Source: Chondrinema litorale (GTDB taxonomy: Bacteria; Bacteroidota; Bacteroidia; Cytophagales; Flammeovirgaceae). Taken from it: a stretch of 64,000 nt of DNA. Positions 1 to 54,600 of the stretch are shown here, one piece after another (the stretch's first letter is position 1; the number at the start of each line of letters is the position of its first letter). Position numbers and translations under genes: made by a program. The stretch is from assembly GCF_026250525.1 (NCBI RefSeq), contig NZ_CP111043.1, positions 1,289,421 to 1,353,420 on the forward strand, read 5' to 3'. Under the pieces are notes generated by a model, which did not search any database, was not told the DNA's origin, and saw only the letters and a program-made list of their open reading frames with translations.

Positions 1-108
1 CCCAACTAGAAAATATTGCATAAAAAAAGCGGGATGAGTTAGGGTTCATTCCGCTTTTTAGAAATCTTAATTATAGTACTTTTGCCTTGATGCAAAAGTA
101 CCAAAAAC

Positions 109-237
109 TCAAGACTGTGGACAAATTCGCTAAATTTTCTCCATGATCACTAAAAAATCTGAAACTCACTTCGTTCAAACACCAGATTTTTTTTACGTAA
201 TCATTTCAAAAATTCTTGACGCAATTTGACCAAGGTC
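109..237. repeat. Copy A of a ~130-nt repeated element (copy B at 13796..13938)
   Basis: Near-identical stretch TCAAGACTGTGGACAAATTCGCTAAATTTTCTCCATGATCACTAAAAAATCTGAAAC...TCACTTCGTTCAAACACCAGA...ACGTAATCATTTCAAAAATTCTTGACGCAATTTGACCAAGGTC, read directly in both places. The ends form an imperfect inverted repeat (TGGACAAATTCGC vs RC TGGTCAAATTGCG). Confidence 0.8.
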
Positions 238-298
238 GGTAAAATAATTATAATATTTTCTTAAATAAGAAATATTTTATCTAACCACCTCACGTAAA

Positions 299-1219
299 TC
301 ATTTACAAAAACTATATTCTGGAGGGCTAGCGGCAGCATTTTCTGTTGCATAAATAGTATGTGTTTGAAAGTGAATGCCATTTCTTACTTTTTCTAAAAA
401 CTCATAAACCGGTTCTTGTAACTGAAAAAAGTGTTTGCCGGCAATTTCGTGTTTACCTCCACAATAACTAATCAGATCAACATCTCCATTTAAATCTACA
501 TGTCTTTTGTAAACAGAATAAGAACCAAAAAGCATAAGCCAGCCAGAAGCATTAGTTTCGCAGTAGTGGTGAGCAGCAGTACCATAAGGCACTACCGGAT
601 CGCTATTGCCATGAAAAAACAAACTCGGTATTTGGCTTTCTTCGGTAATCAGGTTAATGTCCATCATAGCACCTGCACCAGAAATTAAACCTGCATATTT
701 AAAATTTTCTGGCAAAGGTTTATCGTACATTTTCATTGTATTATAATCCCAGTAGTTTGCATGGAGCACCGTTTCAGCCCCAGCACTACTACCCGCAATA
801 AATACGTCTTCCGGATTAATTTTATATTTCTCTGCATTATCTAAGAAAAAACCTGTAGCCAACCAAAGCTGGTTAGCTGCAATTTGTATCGCTTTTACTT
901 TCTCTGTGAGAATGCCCCCACAACTAAAGTTTTTGCCCTTCATATATAATGTATAAGTGATTGATGCCACTGCATAACCTTTAGGCGCTAAAAATTTACC
1001 TAAACTGTGGCCACCACCTCTGTTGCCACCAGAAAAACCACCACCATGCACAAAAATTACCAGTGGAATTTTTTCTGCTGTTGAATTTTCTGGGAGAAAT
1101 AAATCGAGTTCGAGTTTGGTGCTATCGTCTTGATAATAGGTAAGTGTTTCGAAAGACTGGGCTTGAGTAATAAGTACAAATAAGTGAATAATAAAACTGG
1201 TAAGAATAACTCTTTTCAT
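299..1219 (-). CDS. alpha/beta-hydrolase fold esterase/lipase (secreted)
   Basis: N-terminal signal peptide, HGGGF oxyanion motif (FVHGGGFSGG) and GxSxG (AGSSAGA), 306 aa. Confidence 0.7.
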   Translation of the reverse strand: MKRVILTSFIIHLFVLITQAQSFETLTYYQDDSTKLELDLFLPENSTAEKIPLVIFVHGGGFSGGNRGGGHSLGKFLAPKGYAVASITYTLYMKGKNFSCGGILTEKVKAIQIAANQLWLATGFFLDNAEKYKINPEDVFIAGSSAGAETVLHANYWDYNTMKMYDKPLPENFKYAGLISGAGAMMDINLITEESQIPSLFFHGNSDPVVPYGTAAHHYCETNASGWLMLFGSYSVYKRHVDLNGDVDLISYCGGKHEIAGKHFFQLQEPVYEFLEKVRNGIHFQTHTIYATENAAASPPEYSFCK

Positions 1220-1339
1220 ATTTATAGTTTCTAGCTAATAGTGAAATAGCAATTTAATGGCTAGAAGTCAAAATCGCACAATTTCTTCCCTCAAAGCAGT
1301 ACAGCGTATACCAGAAAAAGCTTTAAAAGCTTCAAAAAA

Positions 1340-1717
1340 TTAGTTGATACGCCAAGGCGGATTTTTTCTATTATCGCCACCATAAAAAAGAATAATCTGA
1401 TTTTTATCTGGATCTTTTAGCCTTGCCTCTCTCCATAACCATCTCTGGTCAGTTGGTAAGCTCTCAAATTCAATACCTTGGGCTTTTAGCTTGTCTACTG
1501 TCTCATCTAGGTTTTCGCATTCAAAATAAACATAAATGCCCTCGCCTTGTGGCAATTTTTCTACCTGATGAATAGAGAATGTAGCCTCACCATCCAGACA
1601 CTCAAATCGGGCGTAATGCGGGAGTGCTTCTACTATCAGTTTTAAACCCAGCTTCTCGTAAAAAGGCACAGAAACCGTTAAATCTAGCGATGGTACAGTA
1701 ATTTGGTTGAGGTTCAT
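1340..1717 (-). CDS. VOC/glyoxalase-bleomycin resistance family protein
   Basis: 125 aa. Sequence is typical of the glyoxalase-fold small proteins (LGLKLIVE..., paired beta-alpha-beta-beta-beta modules). Confidence 0.55.
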   Translation of the reverse strand: MNLNQITVPSLDLTVSVPFYEKLGLKLIVEALPHYARFECLDGEATFSIHQVEKLPQGEGIYVYFECENLDETVDKLKAQGIEFESLPTDQRWLWREARLKDPDKNQIILFYGGDNRKNPPWRIN

Positions 1718-1843
1718 ACTAATAAATTTTATACCTTAAAAGGGTAAAGTTATTAACCGACTTATAAAATTTTTACTATTAATTCTAAGTTTATTGATAA
1801 AAGACTAAAGCATCTATCTTTAAAATAAACAACAAAAATTAAA

Positions 1844-3322
1844 ATGGCATTCGGCGTTTCACCTAAACATATAGAAGAATTTAATTTAAAAGGATTACCA
1901 ATACATCACTTTTTGGTTCTCGCAACTGAAACAGCCAAGAACCTTGAATGGGATATTAGCCATATAAGTGAAAAAGGTTTTATAGCTTATACAAGTAATT
2001 CTCTTAGCTCTTGGGAAGAAGAAATCGCAATAAAGATAGAAGATGAAGCAATAAAGATTAAGAGCGAATGTACTGGTAATCAGTTTACAGATTGGGGCAG
2101 AAACAAAAAAAATATAGAAGATTTTTTTGCAGCTTTTGAAGAAATAGAATTAAACTTTACAGAAGAAGAATTTGAAGAAAGATACCTAGAACTAAGCCAA
2201 AACTTTGCAACAACAGAAGAAGATCTTCTTAGAGAATCTCCTTTGAGTAATAAAGAAAAGGTATCTGGTTTCATTTCCATTTTTAAACCCACCGAAGGTT
2301 ATTACGTCACGCCAATTTTAATAATCCTCAATGTATCAATTTTCATTCTGATGCTACTTGCAGGCGTTCACATATTAACGCCTGAAAGCCAAGATTTAAT
2401 TAACTGGGGAGCTAACTTTAAGCCATATACACTAGATGGAGGTTGGTTAAGATTACTTACCTCATGTTTTTTACATGCAGGTATACTTCACCTTTTATTA
2501 AATATGTATGCACTATTATATATAGGAGTCCTTTTAGAACCTCTATTGGGGAAAAGTAGGTTTTTATCTGCTTATCTCATTTCTGGTATTGCAGCAAGTT
2601 TGGCAAGTCTATGGTGGAATGATTTAACAGTAAGCGTAGGAGCATCAGGGGCAATTTTTGGCATGTATGGAGTTTTGCTCGCTTTATTATTAAATAATAT
2701 TATTGGCAGCGCCGTAAAAAAAGCCATGCTAACTAGTATTTCTTTTTTTATAGGCTACAACATCCTTTATGGAATAAGAACAGACAGTGGGATAGATAAT
2801 GCAGCTCACATTGGTGGACTCTTAAGCGGAGTAGTTATTGGATATGCTTTAATTCCAAGTCTAAAAAATTATAACAATACCTCTTATAAATATTCGACTA
2901 TTGGTGGATTGTCTGCCTTGCTACTAGGCATTTCATTTGTTATGTATAGTACTCTGCCCAACGACATTGGTAAATACAACAAAGAAATGCAAAGATTCGC
3001 TTCAATGGAAGCAATGGCTATTGAAGTACTTCAACTACCTCAAAATATAGCAAAAGAAGAAGCTTTAAAAGAAATAAAAGACAAAGGCATTTACTACTGG
3101 AACGAGAACCTCAAACTTATAAACAACCTCATAGAATTAGATTTGCCTGAAGTAATTCAAGAACGAAACAAGATTCTGAGAGAGTATTGTGAAATTAGAA
3201 TCAAGAGCTATCAATTAATTTATAAAGGCCTTGAAGAAGAAACAGATATTTATCAGAATGAAATTTTACAGTATAATGCTCAAATTGAAAATATCATAAA
3301 CAGTCTAAATAGCCCACAATAG
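1844..3322 (+). CDS. rhomboid family intramembrane serine protease with N-terminal soluble domain and C-terminal helical extension
   Basis: Multiple TM helices. Rhomboid catalytic GASGAIFG serine motif and downstream AHIGGLLSG histidine motif. Confidence 0.75.
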   Translation: MAFGVSPKHIEEFNLKGLPIHHFLVLATETAKNLEWDISHISEKGFIAYTSNSLSSWEEEIAIKIEDEAIKIKSECTGNQFTDWGRNKKNIEDFFAAFEEIELNFTEEEFEERYLELSQNFATTEEDLLRESPLSNKEKVSGFISIFKPTEGYYVTPILIILNVSIFILMLLAGVHILTPESQDLINWGANFKPYTLDGGWLRLLTSCFLHAGILHLLLNMYALLYIGVLLEPLLGKSRFLSAYLISGIAASLASLWWNDLTVSVGASGAIFGMYGVLLALLLNNIIGSAVKKAMLTSISFFIGYNILYGIRTDSGIDNAAHIGGLLSGVVIGYALIPSLKNYNNTSYKYSTIGGLSALLLGISFVMYSTLPNDIGKYNKEMQRFASMEAMAIEVLQLPQNIAKEEALKEIKDKGIYYWNENLKLINNLIELDLPEVIQERNKILREYCEIRIKSYQLIYKGLEEETDIYQNEILQYNAQIENIINSLNSPQ

Positions 3323-3791
3323 AATATCTGCATTCTTTCTAATCAAAACAAACTTACAATACTAAATATAAGATCATATGGATAATTTTATGATTGCATT
3401 TGTGGCAATGTTAGCCACTGTGTTTTTCTCTAGACTAATAAATGAAAAGGCAAATAAAAAGCTCGATCCGGATAAAAAACTTCTTCTAATCGACTTATTT
3501 TCAGATAGTAGAAGCTGGTCTAAGGTGCAATTTTCGCAATTGTAATACTCTTTTTTTTAAGCTTAAAATTTAAGCTCTTACCTAATGTTTGGATTAACAT
3601 CATCTATTTCACATCATTATTAATTTACTTCGTGATTATGACCAGACATACTCACAAAAAACTTAAGCGAAATGACTTCCCTGATGATTATATAAAGTCA
3701 TATATCTTTTCGATTTCTGTGCGACTAATTGGACTCGTTATCTTTGTTTCTCGAATCAATTTTTAAGTTGTTAATACTATCAACATAACCA

Positions 3792-4247
3792 ATGAAAACA
3801 CAAAAATTCGGACAAGATAGAATAAATGATGTTCGTAAGAGACTCTCAACTTTGAGTGATGAAGATTACGATTATGAGATTTTTGATTTCTTAAGTGACA
3901 AAGAAAATCTTGATGAAAAGTTGAGTGTACTACAATTGGAAATAATGGCTACCTACATACTTGAATATGAAGTTAACAATGGAGGTTTCGATCAGTTTTT
4001 TCTAAACAATGAAGATAAATATATTGATGCTGCTATAAATGGTTTGAAGAAAATTGAAGCTGTTGAATTTACTAGCCTTGCAGAAAAAGCTAAGGAAATA
4101 TATCTAAGTAATATTAATCAAGCTATAATTGGTAGAAACCATGAATTTGATGTATTAGATGATAGTTTTTACGATTTACCATCTTACCGTACTCAAAGAA
4201 TCGCATTCACTAAAAAGCATTTAGATGAAATTCTGATCGATAATTAG
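3792..4247 (+). CDS. hypothetical protein (DUF4375/DMP19-like NGGFDQF motif)
   Basis: ORF of 151 aa packed tightly with the two downstream ORFs. Family assignment is from memory of the motif only. Confidence 0.35.
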   Translation: MKTQKFGQDRINDVRKRLSTLSDEDYDYEIFDFLSDKENLDEKLSVLQLEIMATYILEYEVNNGGFDQFFLNNEDKYIDAAINGLKKIEAVEFTSLAEKAKEIYLSNINQAIIGRNHEFDVLDDSFYDLPSYRTQRIAFTKKHLDEILIDN

Positions 4248-4249
4248 AC

Positions 4250-5857
4250 TTGCCCTCCTCCCTATTCAAAACTAACTTAGCTGCTGCAAAATTAAAGACC
4301 TATACCAAAACCAGCAGCATGAATTACCAATCGATACTGGCACAAAATATTGAGCTAATCAAGCAAGCAGCTCCTGACCATAAATCGACCAAAGACAAAG
4401 TACATAGAGAATGGGCAAGCATTATCAGAAATGATATTTCTTTTATGGCTTTGACTTATCAATACTTGGTAGCCAATCTGGCAAACTTCGAAAAAAAATC
4501 TACCACTGAGCAAATAGACCTGTACAAGTACTTACTGGTTTTGGCGAGCTTCTCTCCACAATACAACCTGCTTTCTAAAATCGACCATATTCTCAGCCAA
4601 TACAATGAGCCGATTTGTAAGTCTATCGAGCGCTTATTAGATGTGGCTGATTTTCAGATTATTGAAAGCAACAAAATTATTCATACTGGAACACTTGGCG
4701 ATTTTATCTCATTAATCTTCGAGTTGTACTATACACACACTTCGAGTGAAAGTATTTGCAGGGAAAAAATAGCTCCATACATTCTACCTCTTTGTAAAAA
4801 CTTCAATACAAATAATACCTATCTGGCTCATTTACTTCCGTATCATCCAGAAGCTATTTACACGACAACTCAACTTTTACTGCTTTACATTGAGCAAAAA
4901 AATGACAGTATTTTGTTCCAAAGTATTTGCTACGATATGCTGGGAGAATATGCTAAAAGAGAAGATTTTATACATAAAAATGCTCCAAAAATCTTTACTG
5001 AGTTATTTAAGCTTAAACAAGATTGGTCGAGTGAAGACATCAGTTTTTTAATTGATAAAGGTATTTTAGCTGCTTTCGGAATCAACCTTGCCAGTAAAGA
5101 AGCGCAACTCGAAGCACTCACCGAAAGAATTGCAATTCTTAAAGCCAAAGAATTACATAAAGGAGTAAAACACTATAAAGAACAAAAGCAGAAAATTGAA
5201 GCAAACTACGAAGGCATCCAACAAAAAAAATGGAATGGTGCTGTTCGCTCCATTGCTGTAAAAAAGCCAATTACCAAAGCTTTAGAAGTAGCAATTAAAG
5301 CCTTTGCTCAACATCAACAAATAAGTGTTTTAAGTGCATTATTCAATGATAGCATCGAGTTTAAAAACAAGCCAAAACTCTATAGTTTCCATAAAAACCC
5401 AAAAGTTATTTTTAAAGATTTTGCATTTAAACTATGGGTGATAGAAGAGCTGATGTACAAGCAAGAATTACTCAAACCAAAGTTTGATGTGCGGGAGTTT
5501 GCCAAAGAATACGACAAAAGGCAAATAGACGTCGAGCACGATGGTTATAGCATTATTCCAGAGGTACAGAAGTATTTTAAGCAATTAGATATTCCTCTGG
5601 AGTTACTCAACCAAGTGAAAGAACTCGGCATAGATGATGGTATTTTTGGAGGTTCAGATGTATACAATCAGTTATGGCCTTACTACGATCCCGGTTGTGG
5701 TGATGAGCTTTTACCGATCTCCAACAAAGCAGTGGATGATCTTGCATTGTTACCCAATTTAAAAAAGATTATAGGCTTGGAACTATCCAACCCCGGAAAA
5801 AAACTGGTAAAAGTCCTTAAAGAAAAAGGTATTGAACTAGAAGAAGTTGATAAATAG
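4250..5857 (+). CDS. hypothetical protein, 535 aa (true start possibly the Met at 4319)
   Basis: Long ORF, 2 nt after the upstream gene. No recognisable motifs. Confidence 0.4.
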   Translation: MPSSLFKTNLAAAKLKTYTKTSSMNYQSILAQNIELIKQAAPDHKSTKDKVHREWASIIRNDISFMALTYQYLVANLANFEKKSTTEQIDLYKYLLVLASFSPQYNLLSKIDHILSQYNEPICKSIERLLDVADFQIIESNKIIHTGTLGDFISLIFELYYTHTSSESICREKIAPYILPLCKNFNTNNTYLAHLLPYHPEAIYTTTQLLLLYIEQKNDSILFQSICYDMLGEYAKREDFIHKNAPKIFTELFKLKQDWSSEDISFLIDKGILAAFGINLASKEAQLEALTERIAILKAKELHKGVKHYKEQKQKIEANYEGIQQKKWNGAVRSIAVKKPITKALEVAIKAFAQHQQISVLSALFNDSIEFKNKPKLYSFHKNPKVIFKDFAFKLWVIEELMYKQELLKPKFDVREFAKEYDKRQIDVEHDGYSIIPEVQKYFKQLDIPLELLNQVKELGIDDGIFGGSDVYNQLWPYYDPGCGDELLPISNKAVDDLALLPNLKKIIGLELSNPGKKLVKVLKEKGIELEEVDK

Positions 5858-5865
5858 AAATCAAA

Positions 5866-6195
5866 ATGAATAATCAACTCAAAGAAAGGCTTTTTAAGTT
5901 TTTACAAACCTGTGATAACTACAGAGGCAGAAAGATTATTATTAAAGAATTTATTACGACCAATAAAGATAATTACAACAGACATTTTACTACCTTTTCT
6001 GAATTGGAGTTTACGTTGCAAAGTTGTGGTGCGAGAATAAGTGGTGGAAGAGCCATGTTTTTAGGTGATAAATTGTCTTATGAAATCGCCATTGACATAA
6101 TTGTTGATTTAATAGAAATAGATGAGCTCAATTTTGAGTTGGTCGAAAAATATAGCGAATCGGTTTATAGAAAATCTGAACTCAGGTTTGAGTAA
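5866..6195 (+). CDS. hypothetical protein
   Basis: 109-aa ORF 8 nt after the previous gene, same strand, operon-like. Confidence 0.35.
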   Translation: MNNQLKERLFKFLQTCDNYRGRKIIIKEFITTNKDNYNRHFTTFSELEFTLQSCGARISGGRAMFLGDKLSYEIAIDIIVDLIEIDELNFELVEKYSESVYRKSELRFE

Positions 6196-6282
6196 ACATT
6201 AAAAAGCCTAAAAAACAGTAATTTCGAGACATAATAAACTTTACAAAATTCACTTCTGTTAATTATTACACACTTTCGCTAC

Positions 6283-6298
6283 ATTTGAATTTTGCAAA
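6283..6298. promoter_or_regulatory. 16-mer ATTTGAATTTTGCAAA, copy 1 (upstream of or overlapping the AraC start)
   Basis: Identical 16-mer recurs at 7258..7273 between the AraC gene and the SDR gene. Confidence 0.45.
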
Positions 6299-7250
6299 TC
6301 GTATCTCTCTGATGAAAAACATTAAAGTAACCTCACTCGAAGAATTTTACAAAGAAGCTGTCAACTTCACTGGTAAAGATTTAGAACAAATTCTACCTCC
6401 GGGAATCAATAAAGAAATTGGGCACTTTAATATATTCGACATTGCAGAAACCATACAATCTGTAAAGCAAAAGGCAGAGATGCCATACAACCGCAGAGCT
6501 TATTATAAAATCAGTTTGATCAGAGGGAAAAACAGGGCAGAATATGCCGATAAGGTAATGCAAGTGCAAAAAAACGCTTTGCTTTTTGCTACGCCCAAAG
6601 TACCTTACCACTGGGTTGCTGAAGATGAAAACCAAGCTGGCTGCTTTTGTGTATTCACAGAAGAGTTTATGATAAAGAATAAAAGTGGCGTGGTGCTAGA
6701 TGAGTTACCAATCTTTAAATCAGGCAGTTACCCCGTATTTGAGATTAGTAATGAGCTGGCAGAAGAGCTGAATCACATCTTCAAAAAAATAAAAAAAGAG
6801 ATAGCATCTGACTATGAATTTAAATATGATATGCTGCGAAATTATGTAGTAGAACTCATCCATTACGGACAAAAGCTACAGCCAGTTACCGCTGCTCATG
6901 CAAGCCAAAATGCTTCTTCGCGCATCTTATCACTGTTTATAGAATTGCTAGAAAGACAGTTTCCGATAGAATCTCCCGCACAAAAACTAAAACTAAGATC
7001 GGCAAAAGAGTATGCAGAGCGCCTTGCCATCCATGTAAACCATCTGAATAAAGTCTTAAAAGAAAGCACTGGCAAAACCACTACAGAGATTATTACCAGT
7101 AGAATAGTACAAGAAGCTAAAATACTTCTAAGGCAAACCGACTGGAATATCTCAGAGATTGCTTTTAGTCTGGGCTTCGAAGAAGTTGCCCATTTCTCTA
7201 ACTTCTTTAAAAAGCAGACTACTTTTACTCCTATAACATTCCGCGCATAA
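6285..7250 (+). CDS. AraC family transcriptional regulator (start may be 6312)
   Basis: C-terminal AraC-type double HTH (ISEIAFSLGFEEVAHFSNFFKKQTTFTP). N-terminal ligand-binding-like domain. Confidence 0.75.
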   Translation: MNFANRISLMKNIKVTSLEEFYKEAVNFTGKDLEQILPPGINKEIGHFNIFDIAETIQSVKQKAEMPYNRRAYYKISLIRGKNRAEYADKVMQVQKNALLFATPKVPYHWVAEDENQAGCFCVFTEEFMIKNKSGVVLDELPIFKSGSYPVFEISNELAEELNHIFKKIKKEIASDYEFKYDMLRNYVVELIHYGQKLQPVTAAHASQNASSRILSLFIELLERQFPIESPAQKLKLRSAKEYAERLAIHVNHLNKVLKESTGKTTTEIITSRIVQEAKILLRQTDWNISEIAFSLGFEEVAHFSNFFKKQTTFTPITFRA

Positions 7251-7257
7251 GCCACTT

Positions 7258-7273
7258 ATTTGAATTTTGCAAA
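7258..7273. promoter_or_regulatory. 16-mer ATTTGAATTTTGCAAA, copy 2 (upstream of the SDR gene)
   Basis: Exact repeat of 6283..6298. Confidence 0.45.
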
Positions 7274-7356
7274 GCATGGATTGATGTTCGCAAACAGCTA
7301 GGCTAATTTTAGCTCATCTTTGTTGTATCAAATTTTAAAACCAAACAAATTAAAAG

Positions 7357-8124
7357 ATGGCAACAACAGAAAATAAAATAGCTTTAGTAACTGGCGGCAG
7401 TCGTGGTTTAGGTAGAGATATGGCAATTAACCTTGCTAAAAAAGGAATTGACGTAGTGTTGACTTACAACAGCAACCAGCAAAAAGCAGAAGAAGTAGTA
7501 GCAGAAATTAAAGCTTTAAGGCAAAATGCAATTGCATTTCAATTGAACACTGGTGATGTAAAAGCTTTCGATGAGTTTATTAGTAATGTAACTACACACT
7601 TAAAAGAGAATACTGGCAGCCCTAATTTCGATTTCTTGATTAATAATGCGGGTACTGCGCTTTACGCACCTTTTGCAGAAACTACAGAAGAGCAATTAGA
7701 TAACATTGTGAATATCCACTACAAAGGTGTGTTTTTCTTAACACAAAAAGCTTTGCCTTATATGAATGAAGGTGGTAGAATAATCAATATATCTTCTGGT
7801 TTAGCAAGGTTCTCTTTACCGGGTTCATCAGCTTATGGAGCAATGAAAGGCGCTATTGAAGTACTTACCAGATACCTCGCCAAGGAATTAGGTTCACGCG
7901 GAATTGCTGCCAATGTAGTAGCTCCGGGAGCAATCGAAACAGATTTTGGAAACGGAAATATAAGAGATAATAAAGAAGCCAACGCCATGGTAGCTAACAT
8001 GACAGCACTTGGCCGTGCTGGTTTGCCAGAAGATATTGGTGGCGTAGTAGCATTCTTATGTAGCGAAGAAGCCCGCTGGATAAACGGACAAAGAATTGAA
8101 GTTTCTGGTGGAATGAATTTATAA
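7357..8124 (+). CDS. SDR family NAD(P)-dependent oxidoreductase
   Basis: TGGSRGLGR Rossmann motif, NNAG motif, catalytic YxxxK (YGAMK), 255 aa. Confidence 0.85.
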   Translation: MATTENKIALVTGGSRGLGRDMAINLAKKGIDVVLTYNSNQQKAEEVVAEIKALRQNAIAFQLNTGDVKAFDEFISNVTTHLKENTGSPNFDFLINNAGTALYAPFAETTEEQLDNIVNIHYKGVFFLTQKALPYMNEGGRIINISSGLARFSLPGSSAYGAMKGAIEVLTRYLAKELGSRGIAANVVAPGAIETDFGNGNIRDNKEANAMVANMTALGRAGLPEDIGGVVAFLCSEEARWINGQRIEVSGGMNL

Positions 8125-8150
8125 TTATCCACTCAACAAAGATTTACCAT

Positions 8151-8184
8151 AACGGTTTGGGCATTGCTCGAACCGTTTTTTTGT
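8151..8184 (+). terminator. rho-independent terminator after the SDR gene
   Basis: AACGGTT-TGGGCATTGCTCG-AACCGTT hairpin followed by TTTTTTTG. Confidence 0.65.
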
Positions 8185-8305
8185 TTTATTCGAACATGAA
8201 TAACAAACCACCCTACAGCCTTTCCCTAAAGAGAAGTTACATCAACAAACCAAAAGCTAAAAAGTTTATTAACATCTTCATTTTAACATTAAAAAGTGGT
8301 AACTT

Positions 8306-8539
8306 TTGATGAAATTAATTTACCGCTATTTTGACACTATTAACATGAAACATTTGAAGGAAAATATACTCTTAATTTTAACCTCAGGAATACTTTTTAT
8401 TGGATTACTTTTTCTATTTAACAAGTATGTTTTTGATAAAGAACTAACTACAATAGATATGGCATTTCAAGCTGCTTTTTATGCAATAATGTTCCCTATT
8501 GTATTATACTTCTTTACAGATAAGAAAGAAAATGCTTGA
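8306..8539 (+). CDS. small membrane protein
   Basis: 77 aa with two hydrophobic helices. Confidence 0.3.
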   Translation: MMKLIYRYFDTINMKHLKENILLILTSGILFIGLLFLFNKYVFDKELTTIDMAFQAAFYAIMFPIVLYFFTDKKENA

Positions 8540-8563
8540 TTGGTAGGAGCTTTCTACCTCTAG

Positions 8564-9319
8564 CTAATCAATTTGAAAGATTAATCCGCCACCAAGGTAA
8601 GCACCTTGCATATCGCCATTTATTTGAATAAAACCAGTTAATTTTCTTCTGGTATAGTATAAGCATTTGCCTAATACAAAAGTTTTGTCTCTACCTCCAT
8701 AGCTTTCCCAATAACCAATTGCACCATTTTTCAGCTTATATACAACTTCCCACGTCAAACTAAAATTAACATATAGCTTTCTTGGATTGAAATTTATCAC
8801 ATTAAAATCTTCTTTGCTATAGCTAGTTCCATACTTTTTATAAACATCTTTTCTAAAGTAATAATAGTCGCCACCTTCATACATCATACTAAACTTTCCA
8901 CCTATTATCCGCCAATCTACCCTGTTGAATGGAATATTTAAATTAAGCTCTCCTGTTACTCCTCCACCAAAAAAGTTTTTAGATCCACCATTAAACTCAC
9001 CAACCGCATTGGCATCATACACTCCACCATGCACAATTGCACTGTAAGCAGCATTTATATTTTTACCTGTATAACTCTTGATATACGATAACTCTCCCAA
9101 CTGTATACTGCTAAATTCAATAGGATTTACCTCCGTAGGTTCATCTTCTAAAGTATGGTAATAGCTACCTTGCAAATAAGTACCTTTTGCTCTTTCACCT
9201 CGATACACTGGCTTGGGTAATACACTAGACTCTGTCACAAAATTACCCGCTCCATAATAGTAAGTTCTAGTACAACTTACTAAAACTAATAGCATAAAAA
9301 ATGGTATAAGATATTTCAT
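8564..9319 (-). CDS. outer-membrane lipoprotein/beta-barrel-like hypothetical protein
   Basis: Signal peptide with lipobox-like LVSC. Gly/Tyr-rich beta-strand-like composition. Confidence 0.45.
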   Translation of the reverse strand: MKYLIPFFMLLVLVSCTRTYYYGAGNFVTESSVLPKPVYRGERAKGTYLQGSYYHTLEDEPTEVNPIEFSSIQLGELSYIKSYTGKNINAAYSAIVHGGVYDANAVGEFNGGSKNFFGGGVTGELNLNIPFNRVDWRIIGGKFSMMYEGGDYYYFRKDVYKKYGTSYSKEDFNVINFNPRKLYVNFSLTWEVVYKLKNGAIGYWESYGGRDKTFVLGKCLYYTRRKLTGFIQINGDMQGAYLGGGLIFQID

Positions 9320-9349
9320 AGCTGATAATTAAATATTCATCCTACTGCA

Positions 9350-10303
9350 TTAGGTTTTAATTAGCGCTACTTCACCTGTTCGATTGTTAAATACCATTTG
9401 CTGCACGGTAATACCCATTTTTATATTCTCATCACTTAAAACCTGAATGCATTCTCTAAAACTCAGGTCCTGCTCACTGCTTAGTAGCAAAGTAGCTCTA
9501 TCGAACCTACCACAAGAAGTACTTTGCAGAATACTATCGTCTGTTTCGTTGTTTTGCAGCTTTTTATAATCGTTGGTAACTACTATATAGCCTTTGCCCG
9601 ACTCAGGTACTCTGGTTGCAAACCGGCTTGGCGTTCTTTCGATTACTGCCATTTCTCCTACATTAACTCCAGAAAGTAAGAGCAGACAGTCACTCACAAT
9701 TATGGTTGCTTCTAGCTGCCTTTTTGCTTCATTAAAAGACTCAGCACTATCTAAAACATCTCGCAGTAAAAATGAGATTGGCATTGCTACTTCTGGTGAA
9801 TCGTTGCTCAATACCGCATTTAATGTTACCGAAAACTTACCGGGTTTTGTACCAGACAGAGCACCTACAAAGCCTGCCCAGCCTACCGTCTTGTAAACTG
9901 TTTTACCACCTCGCTGAAAGTTAAAAATTTTAGAATGGGTAGATAATAAATTGTTTTCGGTATGCCAGTCTAAATTTCTAGCATGCACAACCGTATCTGC
10001 ATTGTTAAAAGCAAAAGCGGTACAGCCAAAATAAAACTTAAGTACATCGTAATACAAATTGGCAATTAGTATCTGGTCTGCGGAGTATTTAGAAATTGAA
10101 GCAATAAAATCAATTTCTTCTAGGTAAGATGTGGGGATTAATTGCTGTTTGTACAAACCGATAATGTCGAAAATGCTTGTTTCACCAGCAAGATCACTCA
10201 AATAACATTCGATTAGCTCATCAATCTCAGCGGCGTGATTCTTTAAAAAAGCCCATCTTTCGCTAGCAGGTAAATCGAGATTTACAATATATTCTTTTTC
10301 CAT
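9350..10303 (-). CDS. Ntn-hydrolase of the acid ceramidase/NAAA/choloylglycine hydrolase family
   Basis: Cys-Thr nucleophile context (FGCTAFAF), RNLDW motif, about 317 aa, no signal peptide. Confidence 0.55.
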   Translation of the reverse strand: MEKEYIVNLDLPASERWAFLKNHAAEIDELIECYLSDLAGETSIFDIIGLYKQQLIPTSYLEEIDFIASISKYSADQILIANLYYDVLKFYFGCTAFAFNNADTVVHARNLDWHTENNLLSTHSKIFNFQRGGKTVYKTVGWAGFVGALSGTKPGKFSVTLNAVLSNDSPEVAMPISFLLRDVLDSAESFNEAKRQLEATIIVSDCLLLLSGVNVGEMAVIERTPSRFATRVPESGKGYIVVTNDYKKLQNNETDDSILQSTSCGRFDRATLLLSSEQDLSFRECIQVLSDENIKMGITVQQMVFNNRTGEVALIKT

Positions 10304-10473
10304 ATTCGATAGCTGATTAATGTATCAAGAGTTTTATGAAATAAATTCCACAAACCCTTAAACACCCTAAATATGGTTAAAAATAAGCTTTTTTGATAAT
10401 TTTATAACCTTCTATTTCCTGATTTAATAAGTGAAATCTGCGATTAAAGCTTTTAAAAGGCATTTTATTAACC

Positions 10474-11298
10474 TCAGCTCTTTTTATGCTTATCCATTAA
10501 GTTGATATTATGCATCACACCCAACCATAAAACATTATAGCTATTGTAGTTTGATACATTACTTGTACTCACCAACTGATGCATATAAGTAAAATACACC
10601 GATAGATTTTTAGAAAAACTCATAGATGGCCCCACTATAATTCTATTCTTATCAAACACATTGGTTACCACTTCTTTGCCTGCATTGAGAAAAATCTCGT
10701 CTCCGATCTTAAGCGAAAGCCTTTTACTAGGATTATCCTCAGAAAAATTTACCAAGGGAATTTTAAACATAATTCTGTATCGGAAGCGGAAATTAAAACT
10801 GGTTTCATCATCTAACAACTCTGTTTGATTCACCAACTTTCGAAAGCGATGCTCTAACCTAAACCGATGGACTGTTCCTACTTTGCCATAAGCAATTTTA
10901 GCACTCACTTCTTGATATGGCCGCAATTCAATTTTATTCATGCACTCAGAATTATAGAAACCCAAATTGGCTACACCTAAAACAAATTTCACCTGTGGAT
11001 TAAGGTTATAACCGATACCTGTTCTGAGAATATACATGGATTTTGATTGCAGGCGATCTTCTAAAAACAAACCACCATCTGACAACCAACTCCATCTTTC
11101 TGAAAACCTGATATTGTTAAAATATTGGAACCACTGCTGATGATAAGTTTCTATAGTTTTAACCTGAGCCAAACTAGAAAAGCTAAGAAACAGCAACATA
11201 AAAGCTATAGGTAGTTTTATGTAAGCCTGATGTTTCGGTGTATTTTCTGGTGGTAAATTGATGAGTGTCATTGTCATAATTTTGGAGCTGAGTTGCAT
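10474..11298 (-). CDS. outer membrane protein (DUF2490-like)
   Basis: Signal peptide. Alternating aromatic beta-strand pattern ending in aromatic residues. Confidence 0.4.
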   Translation of the reverse strand: MQLSSKIMTMTLINLPPENTPKHQAYIKLPIAFMLLFLSFSSLAQVKTIETYHQQWFQYFNNIRFSERWSWLSDGGLFLEDRLQSKSMYILRTGIGYNLNPQVKFVLGVANLGFYNSECMNKIELRPYQEVSAKIAYGKVGTVHRFRLEHRFRKLVNQTELLDDETSFNFRFRYRIMFKIPLVNFSEDNPSKRLSLKIGDEIFLNAGKEVVTNVFDKNRIIVGPSMSFSKNLSVYFTYMHQLVSTSNVSNYNSYNVLWLGVMHNINLMDKHKKS

Positions 11299-11583
11299 CG
11301 ATTAACCAAATCGCATCATTATGACGAAAAATAGAATACACCTATTCTTTTATAGATAGTCTGGGGTAATTGAGGTGAGTTAATTCTACTCAAAGATTTT
11401 TTAAAGAAATGCCCACCTTTAACAAGCAGGCATTTCCATATTAATAGTATATTCTTTTTCCAAATGTGATAGCTGATTTGATATGGAAAAAGTAACTGTG
11501 GAAATAAGATTTTTAAATGATTTATGATGTTAAAATAACTGTTTAATATCAGGTTTTGAAAACATCACTATCATTAAATCTCA

Positions 11584-12741
11584 TCAAAAATGTTGGTTTT
11601 CATCTGGTCCTGGATCGGCGTACGCAGGGTCTATTGCCCGAATGTAAATTTCTCCATTTTCCAGCACCTTCACATCAAGCGGCACTATGGTAGTTCCTCT
11701 TTGGTTAATGGTTTGAGCAGTTTCAGATAAATCTTTGCTTTCTACTCCATCCCTATCCACAGGAGGAATATCGCCATTAAAAAATGCTGTACACCACCAT
11801 TTACCATCACGTGTTTGGAATGGCGTTCCATGTCCCAAGAAGCGACCAACAAATTTTCTTGGTCCATATTTACCTGTAATTTCATCAGCCACACAATAGT
11901 ACAAATTGTAAGAACCTTTGCGCATTTTATCTGTAGACCAAGCGGTTCCAAATGAAACATACTTGCCACCTATTTTGCGCATAGTTGCTCCTTCGTGACC
12001 AATTCGGGTAATGGTTTCTCCTTGCTTTTGCGGGTTTTGTCTTTCGCTAGCAGGCTCGATATAGTAAGGCTCTGTAGCCAATCCACTAAAATCGTCTTTA
12101 ATCTTAGCAATATAGGTATTGCCCCAAAGTGCATACCAAGTGCCATCGTCGTCTTTAAACAAAGAAGGATCGTGTTTTTCGTCGAAAGCCTCGCCCATAG
12201 GGTGTTTCCAAGGGCCTTTTACTTTAGCTCCTTTTGTAAAAGCCAAACTGCTCACCGCTGCCGGGCAATGTACCAAAGCCCATTTGTCTTTTACCCAGTG
12301 AATTTCGGGAGCCCAAATCACCTCTTCTTTAATCTCGTTCTTATCTTTTTTGTACTGATAAGAATCTTTTATTGTGAATGGCGTGCCCAGATATTCCCAA
12401 TCGATTAAGTCTTTGCTTCGCCAAAGCTGAACTTTTGAACCAACGATGCTTCCTTTAAAAAGCCCTTTGTTGTAAGGATCAGTTTTTTCTTTTGGATCAC
12501 CGGGGTTGGGTGTGGTACCAGTTAAATAGTAATAATCATCTGGCCCTAAGATAATGTAAGGGTCTCGTATCCAATGATCTTTAAGAAACAGTGCCTTGTC
12601 GTGAGACTTGAGACCTGCTTCAATTTCGGCTCGGGTGTTTACCGAAGCCACCGCTGCAAAAGCAACTTTTGCGGTTTGTTCTTGTGCATACGCTCCCTGT
12701 AAACACAAGGCAATAAGCACAGTGAAAATAATTGTTTTCAT
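11584..12741 (-). CDS. glycoside hydrolase family 43 (five-bladed beta-propeller), secreted
   Basis: Signal peptide, RDPYII Asp-base motif, WAPE motif, HEGA acid motif. Confidence 0.7.
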   Translation of the reverse strand: MKTIIFTVLIALCLQGAYAQEQTAKVAFAAVASVNTRAEIEAGLKSHDKALFLKDHWIRDPYIILGPDDYYYLTGTTPNPGDPKEKTDPYNKGLFKGSIVGSKVQLWRSKDLIDWEYLGTPFTIKDSYQYKKDKNEIKEEVIWAPEIHWVKDKWALVHCPAAVSSLAFTKGAKVKGPWKHPMGEAFDEKHDPSLFKDDDGTWYALWGNTYIAKIKDDFSGLATEPYYIEPASERQNPQKQGETITRIGHEGATMRKIGGKYVSFGTAWSTDKMRKGSYNLYYCVADEITGKYGPRKFVGRFLGHGTPFQTRDGKWWCTAFFNGDIPPVDRDGVESKDLSETAQTINQRGTTIVPLDVKVLENGEIYIRAIDPAYADPGPDENQHF

Positions 12742-12863
12742 TTTTCTAGTAAATTAAGCTGTTAAAAATTTGTCTATTCAGACTGCGATTAAGTTAGCAA
12801 AATTTCGAACTTTTTAAAAATGTAGCCACTTTACACCAAATTCGTACAGCTCAATTACTAGCA

Positions 12864-13655
12864 TCAGTTTTTTACTGGTAAACCCAATAAGTACAATTTT
12901 TTAGACTTGCCTTTTATTACACCTTTTTCCCAAGTATAGTCCTCAGAATGAAGCCCTTCTAGCAAAACATCCATATCTTCTAATGTGTAAGTGCGACTGT
13001 TAGAAACAGCTCCATCCCAAGCAATAAAAATAGGCAGAAGTGGAATGAGGTAGGTAAAAACGATTTGCTTCCAATTCATCGGGCGAACCATGGGAGTTAT
13101 AAACAAAGTAGTAATAATATTTATCGGGATGGGTAACCACCACAGCCAAACCGGCGGAAAACTATTGTCGCTAATCTCAAACACACATATTGGTTGTCGG
13201 GCATCTTTGGCATCTTTTAAAATGCTTTTTGCCAGATCGGGTTTCATATGGTGCATGCTACAAATCATGGTTCTAATACCTTTATATTTTTCAGGTAAGT
13301 TTGTAGCATCGATGGGTTCTGTGAGGTAGGTAATGTCACTATCTCTTTGGCTGTTTATTTCTGTTGCAACATCTGTATTGGGGTACAAATCACTCAAATT
13401 CAGGCTAAGATCAGTTACTCCATGTTTCTCTTTTAGAATTTGAACTACCTCAGGCATTGGCCCGCCACCGCCAGAACACATATCTATTATTTTAGGAGAT
13501 TCACTATAGGGCAGTGTTTTGGCAATAAGTGAAGCCAATTCATCTGCCGAACCTAAAAGTTTATGAATGGCTACAATGTAGCGGGTCATGAGCATTCTGA
13601 GCCAATTGGGGAACCAAGACTGATCTTCAAATTCAAAAAGGTGTATTCTTTTCAT
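12864..13655 (-). CDS. putative SAM-dependent methyltransferase with C-terminal membrane segment
   Basis: Gly-rich motif I-like DMCSGGGGP. Hydrophobic C-terminus. Assignment is weak. Confidence 0.35.
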   Translation of the reverse strand: MKRIHLFEFEDQSWFPNWLRMLMTRYIVAIHKLLGSADELASLIAKTLPYSESPKIIDMCSGGGGPMPEVVQILKEKHGVTDLSLNLSDLYPNTDVATEINSQRDSDITYLTEPIDATNLPEKYKGIRTMICSMHHMKPDLAKSILKDAKDARQPICVFEISDNSFPPVWLWWLPIPINIITTLFITPMVRPMNWKQIVFTYLIPLLPIFIAWDGAVSNSRTYTLEDMDVLLEGLHSEDYTWEKGVIKGKSKKLYLLGLPVKN

Positions 13656-13795
13656 TTCCAGAGAGGTAAAAAAATATATTAGCTAATGAGAGGTTTGATA
13701 CAATCAATAAAAAACACTTTCTAGTAAGAATCTGATTTCTTAGAAATTGAAGTATTCTTTTTGTCCTTTTGACTTGATTCAAAAGAACGAAAAAA

Positions 13796-13938
13796 TCAAG
13801 ACTGTGGACAAATTCGCTAAATTTCCTCCATGATCACTAAAAAATCTGAAACAGCAGCGGCTGACGCTCACTTCGTTCAAACACCAGAATTTTTCACGTA
13901 ATCATTTCAAAAATTCTTAACGCAATTTGACCAAGGTC
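13796..13938. repeat. Copy B of the ~130-nt repeated element (copy A at 109..237), with a 15-16 nt insertion (AGCAGCGGCTGACGC)
   Basis: Direct alignment with 109..237. Degenerate similarity extends about 35 nt further left in both copies. Confidence 0.8.
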
Positions 13939-14019
13939 ACCCATTTAAGAAAATCATTTAGTGATATCAATTTATATCTAAAACATCACACTAAATATAA
14001 AAAATCCGGAAGTTTAATT

Positions 14020-30854: not shown

Positions 30855-30971
30855 TTTTTTCAGTTAACAGGTGGTTACAGTTAGCAGTATTTCATTTACT
30901 GTTACTAGAGAGCAATTATCAGTCATCGTATTCTGACAACTGATAACTGTTGACTGTTCTCTGAATATTGA

Positions 30972-53901: not shown

Positions 53902-54600
53902 GTGAATAATATTTTCAATCTTATAAATTTTCATAAAAACATGAAATACCTTTATAGCACATTATTATTAATTATCATTTCTTTCTCTGCCAATGCACAA
54001 CTCAGCAAAGGGCTAAAACAAATTGGAGGATCGATTAATGCATCTCATTCAAAAACAAACTCAGAAAACCCTGGATATATATCATCCGATATTTATGATG
54101 ATAGCAGGACTAGCTTTAGTTTTTCACCTTCTTTTGGGTTCTTCATAAAAGATAATATTAGTTTAAGTGCAGGATTGGGCTATAATTATTTAAAAAATAT
54201 ATCAGAATACCCTGATGATGAAGGAACAACTAAGGAAACTTTCAAAAACAAAAGTTTTACGTTCACAATCAATAGCCGCTTTCACAAATCAGTTACAGAC
54301 AACTTTTATCTTTTTTTGCAACCATCTGCAAGCGTAAGTATCGGTAACAGACAATACGAACAACATGAAGATGAAGGCACAAAATACTACACATTTTCAT
54401 TAGGAATTAGTCCAGGTTTGCTATTTATGATTAATGAAAAATTTGGCATTGAAAGCACTTTTGGTTTTTTAGGTTATACCAAATCTAAAAATAAGCCTTA
54501 TGATGATTCTCAAACCCTCCCAAATTCAGAAAATAATAATCTAAATTTTAACTTATCTCCAAGTACATTACAGTTTGGCTTTCGATATTATTTCGAGTAA
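53902..54600 (+). CDS. outer-membrane beta-barrel (porin-family) protein, paralog 1
   Basis: Signal peptide ending ANAQL, then KGLKQIGGS. C-terminal YYFE. Clearly paralogous to the next gene. Confidence 0.5.
   Translation: MNNIFNLINFHKNMKYLYSTLLLIIISFSANAQLSKGLKQIGGSINASHSKTNSENPGYISSDIYDDSRTSFSFSPSFGFFIKDNISLSAGLGYNYLKNISEYPDDEGTTKETFKNKSFTFTINSRFHKSVTDNFYLFLQPSASVSIGNRQYEQHEDEGTKYYTFSLGISPGLLFMINEKFGIESTFGFLGYTKSKNKPYDDSQTLPNSENNNLNFNLSPSTLQFGFRYYFE

What the first reader, a model, noticed from the sequence alone, without database searches (positions are those of the whole stretch)
109..13938. ~130-nt element present twice in direct orientation (109-237 and 13796-13938), with TIR-like ends and a 15-nt indel
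Seen: the two copies are nearly identical apart from a few substitutions and a 15-nt insertion in copy B.

Both lie in intergenic DNA just downstream of a minus-strand gene. Copy B is also about 140-280 nt upstream of the next minus-strand gene.

The element ends resemble each other in inverted orientation (TGGACAAATTCGC ... GCAATTTGACCA). That suggests a MITE-like miniature element.

Alternatively it is a conserved cis-regulatory leader or sRNA. On the minus strand it contains TTGACGCAATTTGACC-like promoter-ish elements.

A high-identity repeat 13.7 kb apart could also mediate recombination or inversion of the intervening segment.
Basis: seen in the sequence. Interest (0 to 1): 0.5.

Follow-up and report, generated by a model that had tools for sequence, protein, structure and literature searches.

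The report
Dispersed hairpin repeat in Chondrinema
The two look-alike stretches are copies of a small non-coding hairpin repeat that has spread between genes in the marine bacterium Chondrinema litorale and its close relatives; this is a previously undescribed but fairly ordinary kind of bacterial "junk/mobile" repeat.

Summary
Aligned bases are 94% identical, with a 15-nt indel (E about 1e-56).

Each copy has a ~125-nt imperfect palindrome (one long hairpin), a U-rich linker and a 9-10-bp A/U-rich hairpin. Copy B also has a loose ~40-nt tail.

The window comes from Chondrinema litorale (Cytophagales). Seven more copies lie at unrelated loci in two related genomes. None turned up in the metagenome, viral, phage or plasmid collections searched, and Rfam gives no match.

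Both window copies are absent from the orthologous loci of sister species. Copy A sits between an esterase stop codon and its conserved terminator.

The stems are kept by compensatory changes. All seven full-length copies tested fold better in the minus sense.

Best reading: a non-autonomous, MITE/REPIN/ERIC-like dispersed repeat that is co-transcribed with neighbouring genes. No target-site duplication, terminal inverted repeats in the strict sense, or partner transposase could be shown.

One oddity: 14-16-nt GC-rich mini-hairpins come and go at three fixed positions inside the element.

It is a new member of a known kind, of modest interest.

The parts
76..237 (-). Copy A of the repeat (core, 162 nt). 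It lacks the apex GC-rich insert and the 3' tail.
   Evidence: Alignments; nhmmer E 1.2e-49; covariance model 182 bits.
113..237 (-). Copy A long imperfect palindrome (hairpin of ~125 nt). The base is GAC..GUC, and the arms are GACCUUGGUCAAAUUGCG / CGAAUUUGUCCACAGUC.
   Evidence: Minus-sense fold -52 kcal/mol (z -5.6) against -36.6 for the plus sense. Consensus structure and pair counts.
102..112 (-). Copy A U-rich linker (UUGAGUUUUUG) directly after the long hairpin.
   Evidence: The T-run columns are invariant in alignment A4.
76..101 (-). Copy A small hairpin, GUACUUUUGC-AUCAAG-GCAAAAGUAC.
   Evidence: Helix 9 is 100% paired, and 3 of its 9 pairs change on both sides across copies.
13763..13938 (-). 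Copy B of the repeat (core, 176 nt).
   Evidence: nhmmer E 4.7e-57; covariance model 206 bits.
13800..13938 (-). Copy B long hairpin.
   Evidence: Minus-sense fold -55.8 kcal/mol against -35.8 for the plus sense.
13853..13867 (-). 15-nt GC-rich apex module (minus sense GCGTCAGCCGCTGCT), absent from copy A. It forms a small GC stem-loop capping the long hairpin.
   Evidence: The same module is in L003-L006, and it is absent in copy A and the L032 copy; L001 has no insert at this site either. Its motif GTCNGCCGCTGC recurs at the linker site in L006 and L007.
13763..13788 (-). Copy B small hairpin, GUUCUUUUGA-AUCAAG-UCAAAAGGAC. Relative to copy A, one pair differs by a compensatory change (C-G to A-U) and another changes from A-U to U-G.
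   Evidence: pairs 190-211 and 196-205.
13789..13799 (-). Copy B U-rich linker (UUGAUUUUUUC).
13721..13762 (-). Loosely conserved 3' tail of copy B (..AATTTCTAAGAAATCAGATTCTTA..). It resembles the tails of L003, L005, L006, L007 and L001 (consensus ..TTGGTAATCAGTTATTTA) and is missing in copy A and L004.
   Evidence: Flank alignment. The conservation is weak, so membership of the element is uncertain.
13680..13989 (-). Block present in this window but not in the orthologous intergenic region of the sister species. It is about 310 nt here against about 10 nt in L015, and it contains copy B.
   Evidence: The intergenic region between the ketopantoate-reductase-family (PanE/ApbA) gene and the 263-aa gene is 364 nt here, 62 nt in L015 and 39 nt in L021. 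blastn homology breakpoints are.
22..59 (-). Intrinsic terminator of the esterase gene: an A-run, a 10-bp stem and a T-run. It is orthologous to the terminator that follows the esterase stop codon after 24 nt in L025, and copy A lies between the stop codon and this terminator.
   Evidence: Sequence comparison. The consensus scanner did not call it because the minus-sense stem has A.C mismatches.
299..1219 (-). Esterase (BD-FAE / alpha-beta hydrolase) gene. Copy A lies in its 3' untranslated region.
   Evidence: Pfam hit; 100% match to a Chondrinema litorale protein.
14020..14934 (-). Ketopantoate reductase family gene (PanE/ApbA), upstream of copy B and co-oriented with it.
   Evidence: Pfam hit; 100% match to a Chondrinema litorale protein.
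12864..13655 (-). 263-aa gene with no family match, downstream of copy B and co-oriented with it.
   Evidence: It is syntenic in L015 and L021 without the repeat.

Best explanation
The two stretches are copies of a small (about 165-220 nt), non-coding, non-autonomous dispersed repeat. It is specific to Chondrinema litorale and its close relatives.

Anatomy, read on the window's minus strand:
- a ~125-nt imperfect palindrome that folds into one long, A/U-rich hairpin;
- a conserved U-rich linker;
- a 9-10-bp hairpin with loop AUCAAG;
- in most copies, a loosely conserved ~40-nt tail.

Shown: copies sit in intergenic DNA at unrelated loci. They are present or absent between closely related genomes. 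The hairpins are maintained by compensatory substitutions, with a consistent preference for one strand.

Inferred:
- The element spreads, or once spread, by trans-mobilisation by an enzyme encoded elsewhere in the genome. That enzyme may act on single-stranded hairpin DNA, because there is no target-site duplication, the inverted repeats are not terminal and the folding is strand-asymmetric.
- Once inserted, it is co-transcribed with the neighbouring gene. Copy A lies inside the esterase 3'UTR, upstream of the native terminator. Copy B lies between the co-oriented PanE/ApbA-family gene and the 263-aa gene.
- In the transcript, the long hairpin followed by UUGAUUUUUU would act as a 3'-end stabiliser or partial terminator.

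In kind it is comparable to MITEs, REPINs, and the ERIC and Correia elements.
For: 1. The repeat is real. The two window copies match at E 1.8e-56, with 94% identity over aligned bases.

2. It is a dispersed family.
- An exact 21-mer scan of one genome per species found full-length copies on four contigs of a MAG labelled 'Thalassovita sp. NP30'. These contigs have ~35% GC and carry Chondrinema-like genes.
- It also found copies on two contigs of a Flammeovirgaceae MAG.
- A ninth copy appeared in a TARA contig.
- Only the element is shared between these loci; the flanks are unrelated.
- Two metagenome contigs end inside the element (L033, L036), and one is a hybrid joined inside it (L032).

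3. Both window sites are empty in relatives.
- The intergenic region between the PanE/ApbA-family gene and the 263-aa gene is 364 nt here. It is 62 nt in the 86%-identical ortholog locus L015 and 39 nt in a third species, L021.
- In L025 the esterase stop codon is followed after 24 nt by the same terminator that here lies 244 nt away, beyond copy A.

4. The structure is maintained.
- 96.4% of cells are paired.
- 10 pairs change on both sides, against 4.3 +/- 1.3 in shuffles (0 of 500 shuffles reach 10) and 0-4 in the slid controls.
- All 7 full copies fold 7-22 kcal/mol better in the minus sense, with invariant G.U pairs.

5. It is not a regulon leader and not a known RNA.
- Flanking genes are functionally unrelated.
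- Rfam gives no match at the gathering threshold or in E-value mode.

6. Copies cluster by genome.
- The NP30 copies are ~90% identical to one another, and L001 and L007 are nearly identical apart from indels.
- Identity between genomes is 72-89%.
- This fits lineage-specific amplification or homogenisation.
Against: - No target-site duplication is supported. Direct repeats between the two flanks of the same copy (mean score 8.0) are no better than between flanks of different copies (7.67 +/- 1.27).
- The inverted repeats are not at both termini.
- No transposase or full-length parent element was seen, and none of the window ORFs scanned is a transposase.
- Only nine copies in three genomes were seen. 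The genome-wide copy number in C. litorale could not be counted.
- The empty sites come from other species (86% and 70% protein identity). Precise ends cannot be read from them, and deletion in those lineages is not formally excluded.
- Compensatory changes in a palindrome can also arise from intra-hairpin repair or gene conversion, without selection on RNA.
- No expression data are available.
Confidence: 0.65

Rival explanations
1. It is primarily a functional structured RNA module (a 3'UTR stabiliser or terminator, or a family of sRNAs). On this view the host keeps it for its RNA function, and duplication is incidental rather than driven by a transposase.
For: - The strand-specific fold advantage holds in 7 of 7 copies, and some G.U pairs are invariant.
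- Covariation exceeds the shuffles and slid controls.
- A conserved U-tract directly follows the long stem.
- Five of nine copies lie 50-125 nt downstream of a co-oriented gene's stop codon.
- Copy B is 89% identical to L003, a non-orthologous copy in another species. That is higher than the 70% identity at 4-fold sites of the adjacent PanE/ApbA-family gene.
Against: - The flanks upstream of the sharp 5' boundary are not conserved, so no external promoter is carried with the element.
- There is no canonical terminator: the stem base is weak, and the scanner finds none.
- One copy is antisense to both neighbours (L004), and two lie between divergent genes.
- Neighbouring genes are unrelated.
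- Orthologous loci in sister species do without it.
- There is no Rfam match.
Confidence: 0.2
2. This is a specific version of the mobile reading. The element would be a hairpin element that transposes as single-stranded DNA, mobilised by a Y1 (IS200/IS605 or RAYT-type) or similar enzyme, like REPINs or PATEs.
For: - It is a long imperfect palindrome with a strand-specific folding advantage; G.T pairs also stabilise ssDNA.
- No target-site duplication is detectable.
- The inverted repeats are not terminal.
- REPINs are described as inverted REP doublets that form hairpins and are mobilised by RAYTs (PMC3116915).
Against: - The 3 nt immediately 5' of the element differ between copies (ACC, GGT, AAT, AAT, TTT, TTC, TTC), so there is no conserved 4-5-nt target.
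- No Y1 transposase gene was seen in the scanned ORFs of the window.
- The arms are not themselves REP-like palindromes.
- Genome-wide association with such a gene could not be tested.
Confidence: 0.2
3. The two copies are the remains of a segmental duplication, or the attL/attR ends of a 13.7-kb integrated island.
For: The two copies are direct repeats that bracket 13.7 kb.
Against: - Nothing beyond the ~165-180 nt is shared between the two sites.
- Gene order on both sides of copy B is conserved in the sister species, which lacks the repeat.
- The copies are only 94% identical and differ by a 15-nt indel.
- Copies occur singly at other loci.
- None of the ORFs scanned between the copies matches an integrase or transposase family; three small ORFs there were not scanned.
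Confidence: 0.02
4. The element encodes a small protein on the plus strand (MITKKSETAAADAHF..., 23-39 aa). The 15-nt indel would be in frame.
For: An ATG-initiated ORF is open in copy A (28 aa), copy B (23 aa), L003 (39 aa; called as a gene in L031), L005 and L006. The apex indel is a multiple of three. This comes from reading alignments A2 and A4.
Against: - The start codon is lost in L004, L007 and L001.
- The stop position and the C-terminal frame differ between copies because of 1-nt indels in the T-run.
- Substitutions are mostly non-synonymous, and they are the compensatory partners of stem changes.
Confidence: 0.03

Closest known systems
REPINs (REP doublets forming hairpins) mobilised by RAYT transposases (Bertels & Rainey 2011, PMC3116915)
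   Same: Both are non-coding and extragenic, roughly 100 nt long, and are imperfect palindromes predicted to form a hairpin in ssDNA or mRNA. Both are dispersed in multiple copies and non-autonomous. Neither has an obvious target-site duplication.
   Different: The arms here are not recognisable REP units. The element carries an extra linker, a second hairpin and a tail. No RAYT association could be tested. The copy number seen is small (nine copies in three genomes).
ERIC/IRU elements of enterobacteria and Correia elements of Neisseria (from my own knowledge, not tested here)
   Same: These are 100-160-nt imperfect palindromes in transcribed intergenic regions. They are inserted in either orientation and co-transcribed with neighbouring genes, where they affect mRNA processing, stability or termination. 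Some ERIC copies carry internal insertions at fixed sites.
   Different: The host phylum is different (Bacteroidota). No sequence relationship was tested or is expected. Correia elements have clear TIRs and a TA duplication, which are not seen here. The internal insertions here are tiny GC-rich hairpins of 14-16 nt.
Classical bacterial MITEs (deletion derivatives of IS elements)
   Same: Both are small, non-coding and multi-copy. Both are polymorphic for insertion between relatives, and both have inverted repeats able to pair.
   Different: The inverted repeats are not at both ends of the repeat unit. No target-site duplication is supported. No parent IS with matching ends was found.
GTAG/CGTC-tagged REPs (Di Nocera et al. 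2013, PMC3733652), as a comparison for the GC-rich mini-inserts only
   Same: Both are short GC-rich palindromic units found inside or next to other repeats. One insert contains CGTC.
   Different: The paper describes stems of 8-9 bp (CGTC) or 5-13 bp (GTAG) with defined tags and tails. The inserts here are 14-16 nt with predicted stems of 3-5 bp. In the DNA available they occur only inside this element.

Membership tests
MITE | Short (under ~600 bp) and non-coding | tested here: met
   The core is 162-207 nt. The only ORF is a non-conserved plus-sense ORF of 23-39 aa whose start is lost in 3 copies.
MITE | Multiple copies at non-homologous loci, with presence/absence between relatives | tested here: met
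   Nine copies in three genomes, with unrelated flanks. Both window sites are empty in sister species.
MITE | Terminal inverted repeats at both ends of the unit | tested here: not met
   The inverted repeats (GACCTTGGTCAAATTGCG / CGAATTTGTCCACAGTC) bound only the long hairpin. A conserved linker, a second hairpin and, in most copies, a tail lie outside one arm.
MITE | Target-site duplication of fixed length | tested here: inconclusive
   Same-copy flank repeats are no better than cross-copy controls. Copy A alone has a perfect TATAATTA, but at unequal offsets. No precise empty allele was available.
MITE | Autonomous IS with matching ends in the same genome | not testable with these tools
   The C. 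litorale genome could not be fetched. No transposase was found among the window ORFs scanned.
REPIN / REP-RAYT system | Hairpin made of two inverted REP units plus a spacer | tested here: inconclusive
   The long imperfect palindrome is confirmed, but the arms are not recognisable REP palindromes.
REPIN / REP-RAYT system | RAYT (Y1 transposase) gene flanked by the same repeats | not testable with these tools
IS200/IS605-derived PATE | Conserved 4-5-nt target immediately 5' of the left end | tested here: not met
   The 3 nt immediately 5' of the element differ between copies: ACC, GGT, AAT, AAT, TTT, TTC, TTC.
Any Rfam RNA family (including 6S, HEARO/omega-RNA-like and Bacteroidota motifs) | Covariance-model match at or near the gathering score | tested here: not met
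   There are 0 matches at the gathering threshold in the whole window. In E-value mode only chance-level hits appear (at most 21 bits, against cut-offs of 48 to 122 bits).
Free-standing sRNA gene | Own promoter and terminator carried with the conserved unit, at a syntenic position | tested here: not met
   Conservation starts abruptly at GACC, with unrelated upstream flanks. No canonical terminator is found. The loci are not syntenic and are polymorphic for the insertion.
Segmental duplication / island att sites | Shared flanking genes, or an island-specific gene set bounded by the repeats | tested here: not met
   Only the element is shared. Synteny continues across copy B in L015.
CGTC/GTAG REPs (for the GC-rich mini-inserts) | Stem of 8-9 bp (CGTC) or 5-13 bp (GTAG) with a terminal tag and a 3-nt tail | tested here: not met
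   The inserts are 14-16 nt with predicted stems of 3-5 bp. Family features were taken from PMC3733652.

The most novel reading that the evidence does not exclude
The 14-16-nt GC-rich hairpin modules may themselves be a tiny mobile or templated insertion system.

They appear and disappear at three fixed, mostly unpaired positions of the element: the apex of the long hairpin, just 3' of GTCCA, and the U-rich linker. One motif, GTCNGCCGCTGC, occurs at two different positions and in three genomes.

On this reading the system targets loops of this AT-rich repeat. The only comparison I know of is the GC clusters of yeast mitochondrial genomes.

In a related version, the whole element is an RNA-level parasite whose structure is being actively 'clamped' by such additions.
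Probability: 0.1. Interest if true: 0.65.

Novelty: new member of a known kind. Interest (0 to 1): 0.3.

Why it matters
If the reading is right, this is the first described intergenic hairpin repeat family for the Chondrinema / Flammeovirgaceae group of marine Cytophagales.

Practical consequences:
- It breaks and chimerises metagenome contigs of these organisms (L032, L033, L036).
- It changes the 3'UTR or intercistronic RNA of the genes it lands next to.
- It offers a strain-typing marker.

It does not open a new biological principle, because bacteria of many phyla carry comparable elements.

The nested GC-rich mini-hairpins are the one feature that could repay closer study. They would bear on how palindromic repeats gain and lose modules.

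Tried and rejected
1. Known RNA family: rejected. Rfam gives nothing at the gathering threshold for the whole window. E-value mode on both a window copy and L003 gives only chance-level hits.

2. More copies elsewhere: none found.
- The metagenome scan with an invariant 20-mer returned only chance or coding hits in 44-57% GC contigs. Three of these are one homologous gene.
- Two viral-contig scans found nothing real.
- The plasmid and phage collections gave no match.
- nhmmer over about 300 kb of held sequence and the covariance model over 164 kb found no further full copies. The model's only new hit is a solo 3' module in L004.

3. Fetching the C. litorale genome around the window or its 268-kb replicon: not on record or not in the collections.

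4. Target-site duplication: rejected. The flank-repeat test is no better than cross-copy controls.

5. Cis-regulatory leader of a regulon: rejected. The neighbouring genes are unrelated: an esterase, a PanE/ApbA-family gene, a PLP decarboxylase, a PadR regulator, a cysteine desulfurase, a CdsZ-like protein and a photolyase-related protein.

6. Small protein on the plus strand: rejected. The start codon is lost in 3 copies, and the stop position and frame vary.

7. Pseudoknot or alternative pairing between linker CUUGA and loop UCAAG: rejected. The two changes in the Flammeovirgaceae MAG copies (CUAGA / UCAUG) are not compensatory (from alignment A2).

8. GC-rich motif as a genome-wide mini-repeat: rejected for the DNA available. 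GCCGCTGC and other GC-rich 14-mers occur otherwise only in coding DNA.

9. Island att sites or segmental duplication: rejected.

10. Outward sigma-70-like hybrid promoter (TTGACC-17-TATAAT, 226-254, plus strand): given little weight. It is present at copy A only. From my own knowledge, Bacteroidota do not use that consensus.

Full report
**Observation.** The two stretches are genuinely related. A blastn search of copy A against the 64-kb window finds copy B at E 1.8e-56 and nothing else. The repeat finder reports the same pair in three collinear pieces.

A global alignment of 76-237 against 13763-13938 has 151 matches, 10 mismatches and 16 gap columns. That is 94% identity over aligned bases, and the longest exact run is 29 nt.

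The extra part is a 10-bp hairpin at 76-101 and 13763-13788. The gene context is as described.

**Anatomy.** Read on the minus strand, each copy has three parts:
- a ~125-nt imperfect palindrome that folds as one long, A/U-rich hairpin (A 237-113; B 13938-13800);
- a conserved U-rich linker (UUGAKUUUUUYG);
- a 9-10-bp hairpin with loop AUCAAG.

The minus sense folds at -52 and -55.8 kcal/mol (z -5.6 and -3.6). The plus sense folds at -36.6 and -35.8 kcal/mol. The 15-nt indel (13853-13867) sits exactly at its apex.

**Source and relatives.** Flanking proteins are 100% identical to Chondrinema litorale proteins on a 4.94-Mb contig. This is a marine member of the Cytophagales.

An exact 21-mer scan of one genome per species found full-length copies in two places:
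- four contigs of a MAG labelled 'Thalassovita sp. NP30', which have ~35% GC and carry Chondrinema-like genes;
- two contigs of a Flammeovirgaceae MAG.

A further copy surfaced in a TARA contig. Only the element is shared between these loci; the flanks are unrelated.

Other searches found nothing real:
- The metagenome scan gave only chance 20-21-mer hits.
- Two viral-contig scans, the plasmid collection and the phage collection gave no true copy.
- A profile HMM run over about 300 kb of held sequence, and a covariance model run over 164 kb of it, found no further full copy. The model did find a solo 3' module (U-tract plus small hairpin) at L004:1918-1997.

**Insertion polymorphism.**

*Copy B.* In a sister species (86% protein identity, L015) the ketopantoate-reductase-family (PanE/ApbA) gene and the 263-aa gene are 62 nt apart. 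In a third species (L021) they are 39 nt apart. In the window they are 364 nt apart. blastn places the extra block at about 13680-13989. The species that gives L015 is the NP30 one, which carries the family at other loci. The difference therefore reflects gain or loss after the lineages split.

*Copy A.* In L025 the esterase stop codon is followed after 24 nt by an intrinsic terminator and the motif TTTTTTTATGCA. The same terminator and motif are in the window at 59-22. There they are separated from the stop codon by 61 nt, the element, and a further 18 nt. Copy A therefore lies inside the esterase 3'UTR.

**Structure conservation.** On seven full copies the consensus structure has 60 pairs, and 96.4% of cells are paired. 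Ten pairs show changes on both sides. Shuffles give 4.3 +/- 1.3 (0 of 500 reach ten), and controls with the partner column slid give 0-4.

All seven copies fold 7-22 kcal/mol better in the minus sense, and several G.U pairs are invariant. This points to a single-strand-specific structure, either RNA from the minus strand or that strand as ssDNA. One caveat applies: palindromes can also be kept symmetrical by intra-hairpin repair or gene conversion.

**What it is not.**
- It is not in Rfam.
- It is not a leader of a regulon. Neighbouring genes are unrelated. The copies lie downstream of co-oriented genes (five), between divergent genes (two), antisense to both neighbours (one), or at a contig end (one).
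- It is not a free-standing sRNA gene. Conservation begins abruptly at GACC, with unrelated upstream DNA.
- It is not a segmental duplication or island boundary. Nothing else is shared between the two sites, and synteny runs across copy B in the relative.
- It is not coding. The plus-sense small ORF loses its start codon in three copies and has variable ends.

**Mechanism.** The best-supported reading is a non-autonomous dispersed repeat of the MITE/REPIN/ERIC kind. Copies are spread by an enzyme encoded elsewhere and are then co-transcribed with neighbouring genes. In the transcript, the long hairpin followed directly by UUGAUUUUUU would be expected to protect or define mRNA 3' ends.

The mobility mechanism is inferred, not shown:
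- No target-site duplication is supported.
- The inverted repeats are not terminal.
- The bases immediately 5' of the element are not conserved between copies.
- No transposase was seen in the scanned ORFs.

The absence of a duplication and the strand asymmetry fit a transposase that acts on single-stranded hairpin DNA, as proposed for REPINs (PMC3116915). I give that sub-hypothesis only about 0.2.

Copies are more alike within a genome than between genomes, except that copy B is closer to the NP30 copies (84-89%) than to copy A. This suggests at least two subfamilies older than the split between C. litorale and the NP30 species.

**An unusual detail.** Very GC-rich modules of 14-16 nt are present or absent at three fixed positions in otherwise near-identical copies.
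- L007 has three such modules that its sister copy L001 lacks.
- L006 shares the linker module with L007.
- The apex module of copy B and L003-L006 is missing from copy A and from the NP30-type copy in L032.
- The apex and linker modules share GTCNGCCGCTGC (3 of 2000 shuffles reach that score). The other two L007 modules are merely GC-rich.
- In the available DNA, GC-rich 14-mers of this kind otherwise occur only in coding sequence.
- They do not meet the published features of GTAG/CGTC REPs.

Whether they are inherited optional modules lost by slippage, or recurrent insertions, cannot be decided with nine copies.

**Verdict.** This is a real, previously undescribed family, but of a familiar kind. 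The genome-wide copy number, the exact ends and the mobilising enzyme remain open, because the complete C. litorale genome could not be searched.

Noticed in passing
L007:804-1020 vs L001:2090-2224; L006:6419-6437; window 13853-13867: GC-rich mini-hairpin modules of 14-16 nt are present or absent at three fixed positions of the repeat. The motif GTCNGCCGCTGC occurs at both the apex and the linker sites, in three genomes. GC-rich 14-mers of this kind are otherwise found only in coding DNA of these AT-rich genomes.
   Followed up: partly
window 9349-13679 vs L015:10954-15286: A 4.3-kb tract is 95.4% identical between C. litorale and the sister species. It covers the 263-aa gene, a GH43 gene, a DUF2490 gene and an acyltransferase-like gene. 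It begins right at copy B, whereas DNA on the other side is 85-92% identical. This mosaic suggests recent recombination between lineages, with one boundary at or near the repeat.
   Followed up: partly
L032:9271-9440; L033:1-58; L036:2-123: One TARA contig is a hybrid joined inside the element: the left half is from a different locus and the right half is identical to the L003 locus. Two other contigs end inside the element. The cause is either repeat-induced assembly artefacts or real recombination between copies.
   Followed up: partly
L004:1918-1997 (minus strand): A solo copy of the element's 3' module (U-tract plus small hairpin with loop CAUCAAGG) is preceded by an unrelated GC-rich hairpin. 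It lies ~50 nt upstream of a gene start. This suggests the element is modular, or that this is a remnant.
   Followed up: partly
L003-L006 (PBYL01 contigs); P0002, P0362: Contigs and proteins labelled 'Thalassovita/Thalassobius sp. NP30' (a Rhodobacterales name) have ~35% GC. They carry genes 86-92% identical to Chondrinema litorale (Cytophagales). The MAG appears to be mislabelled or mixed.
   Followed up: partly
window 10247-10318 and 11407-11478: A 72-nt segment covering the upstream region and first codons of the acyltransferase-like gene (9350-10303) is duplicated at 78% identity in the intergenic region upstream of the DUF2490 gene, where the reading frame is broken. The same relationship shows up against L015.
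   Followed up: no
window 226-254 (plus strand): The end of copy A supplies a TTGACC hexamer that sits 17 nt from a TATAAT in the flank. This 11/12 match to the sigma-70 consensus reads antisense into the esterase gene. Copy B has only a 9/12 equivalent. Its relevance in Bacteroidota is doubtful.
   Followed up: no
window 25935-33029 (minus strand): A 1639-aa protein with DUF3686 ('ATPase involved in DNA repair'), DUF7902 and AAA domains lies next to a 685-aa protein with no family match. This large ATPase gene pair of unknown role could be a defence-type locus.
   Followed up: no
window 53902-55309: Two adjacent plus-strand genes (232 and 215 aa) share a 76-nt stretch at 78% identity, so they are probably tandem paralogues.
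   Followed up: no
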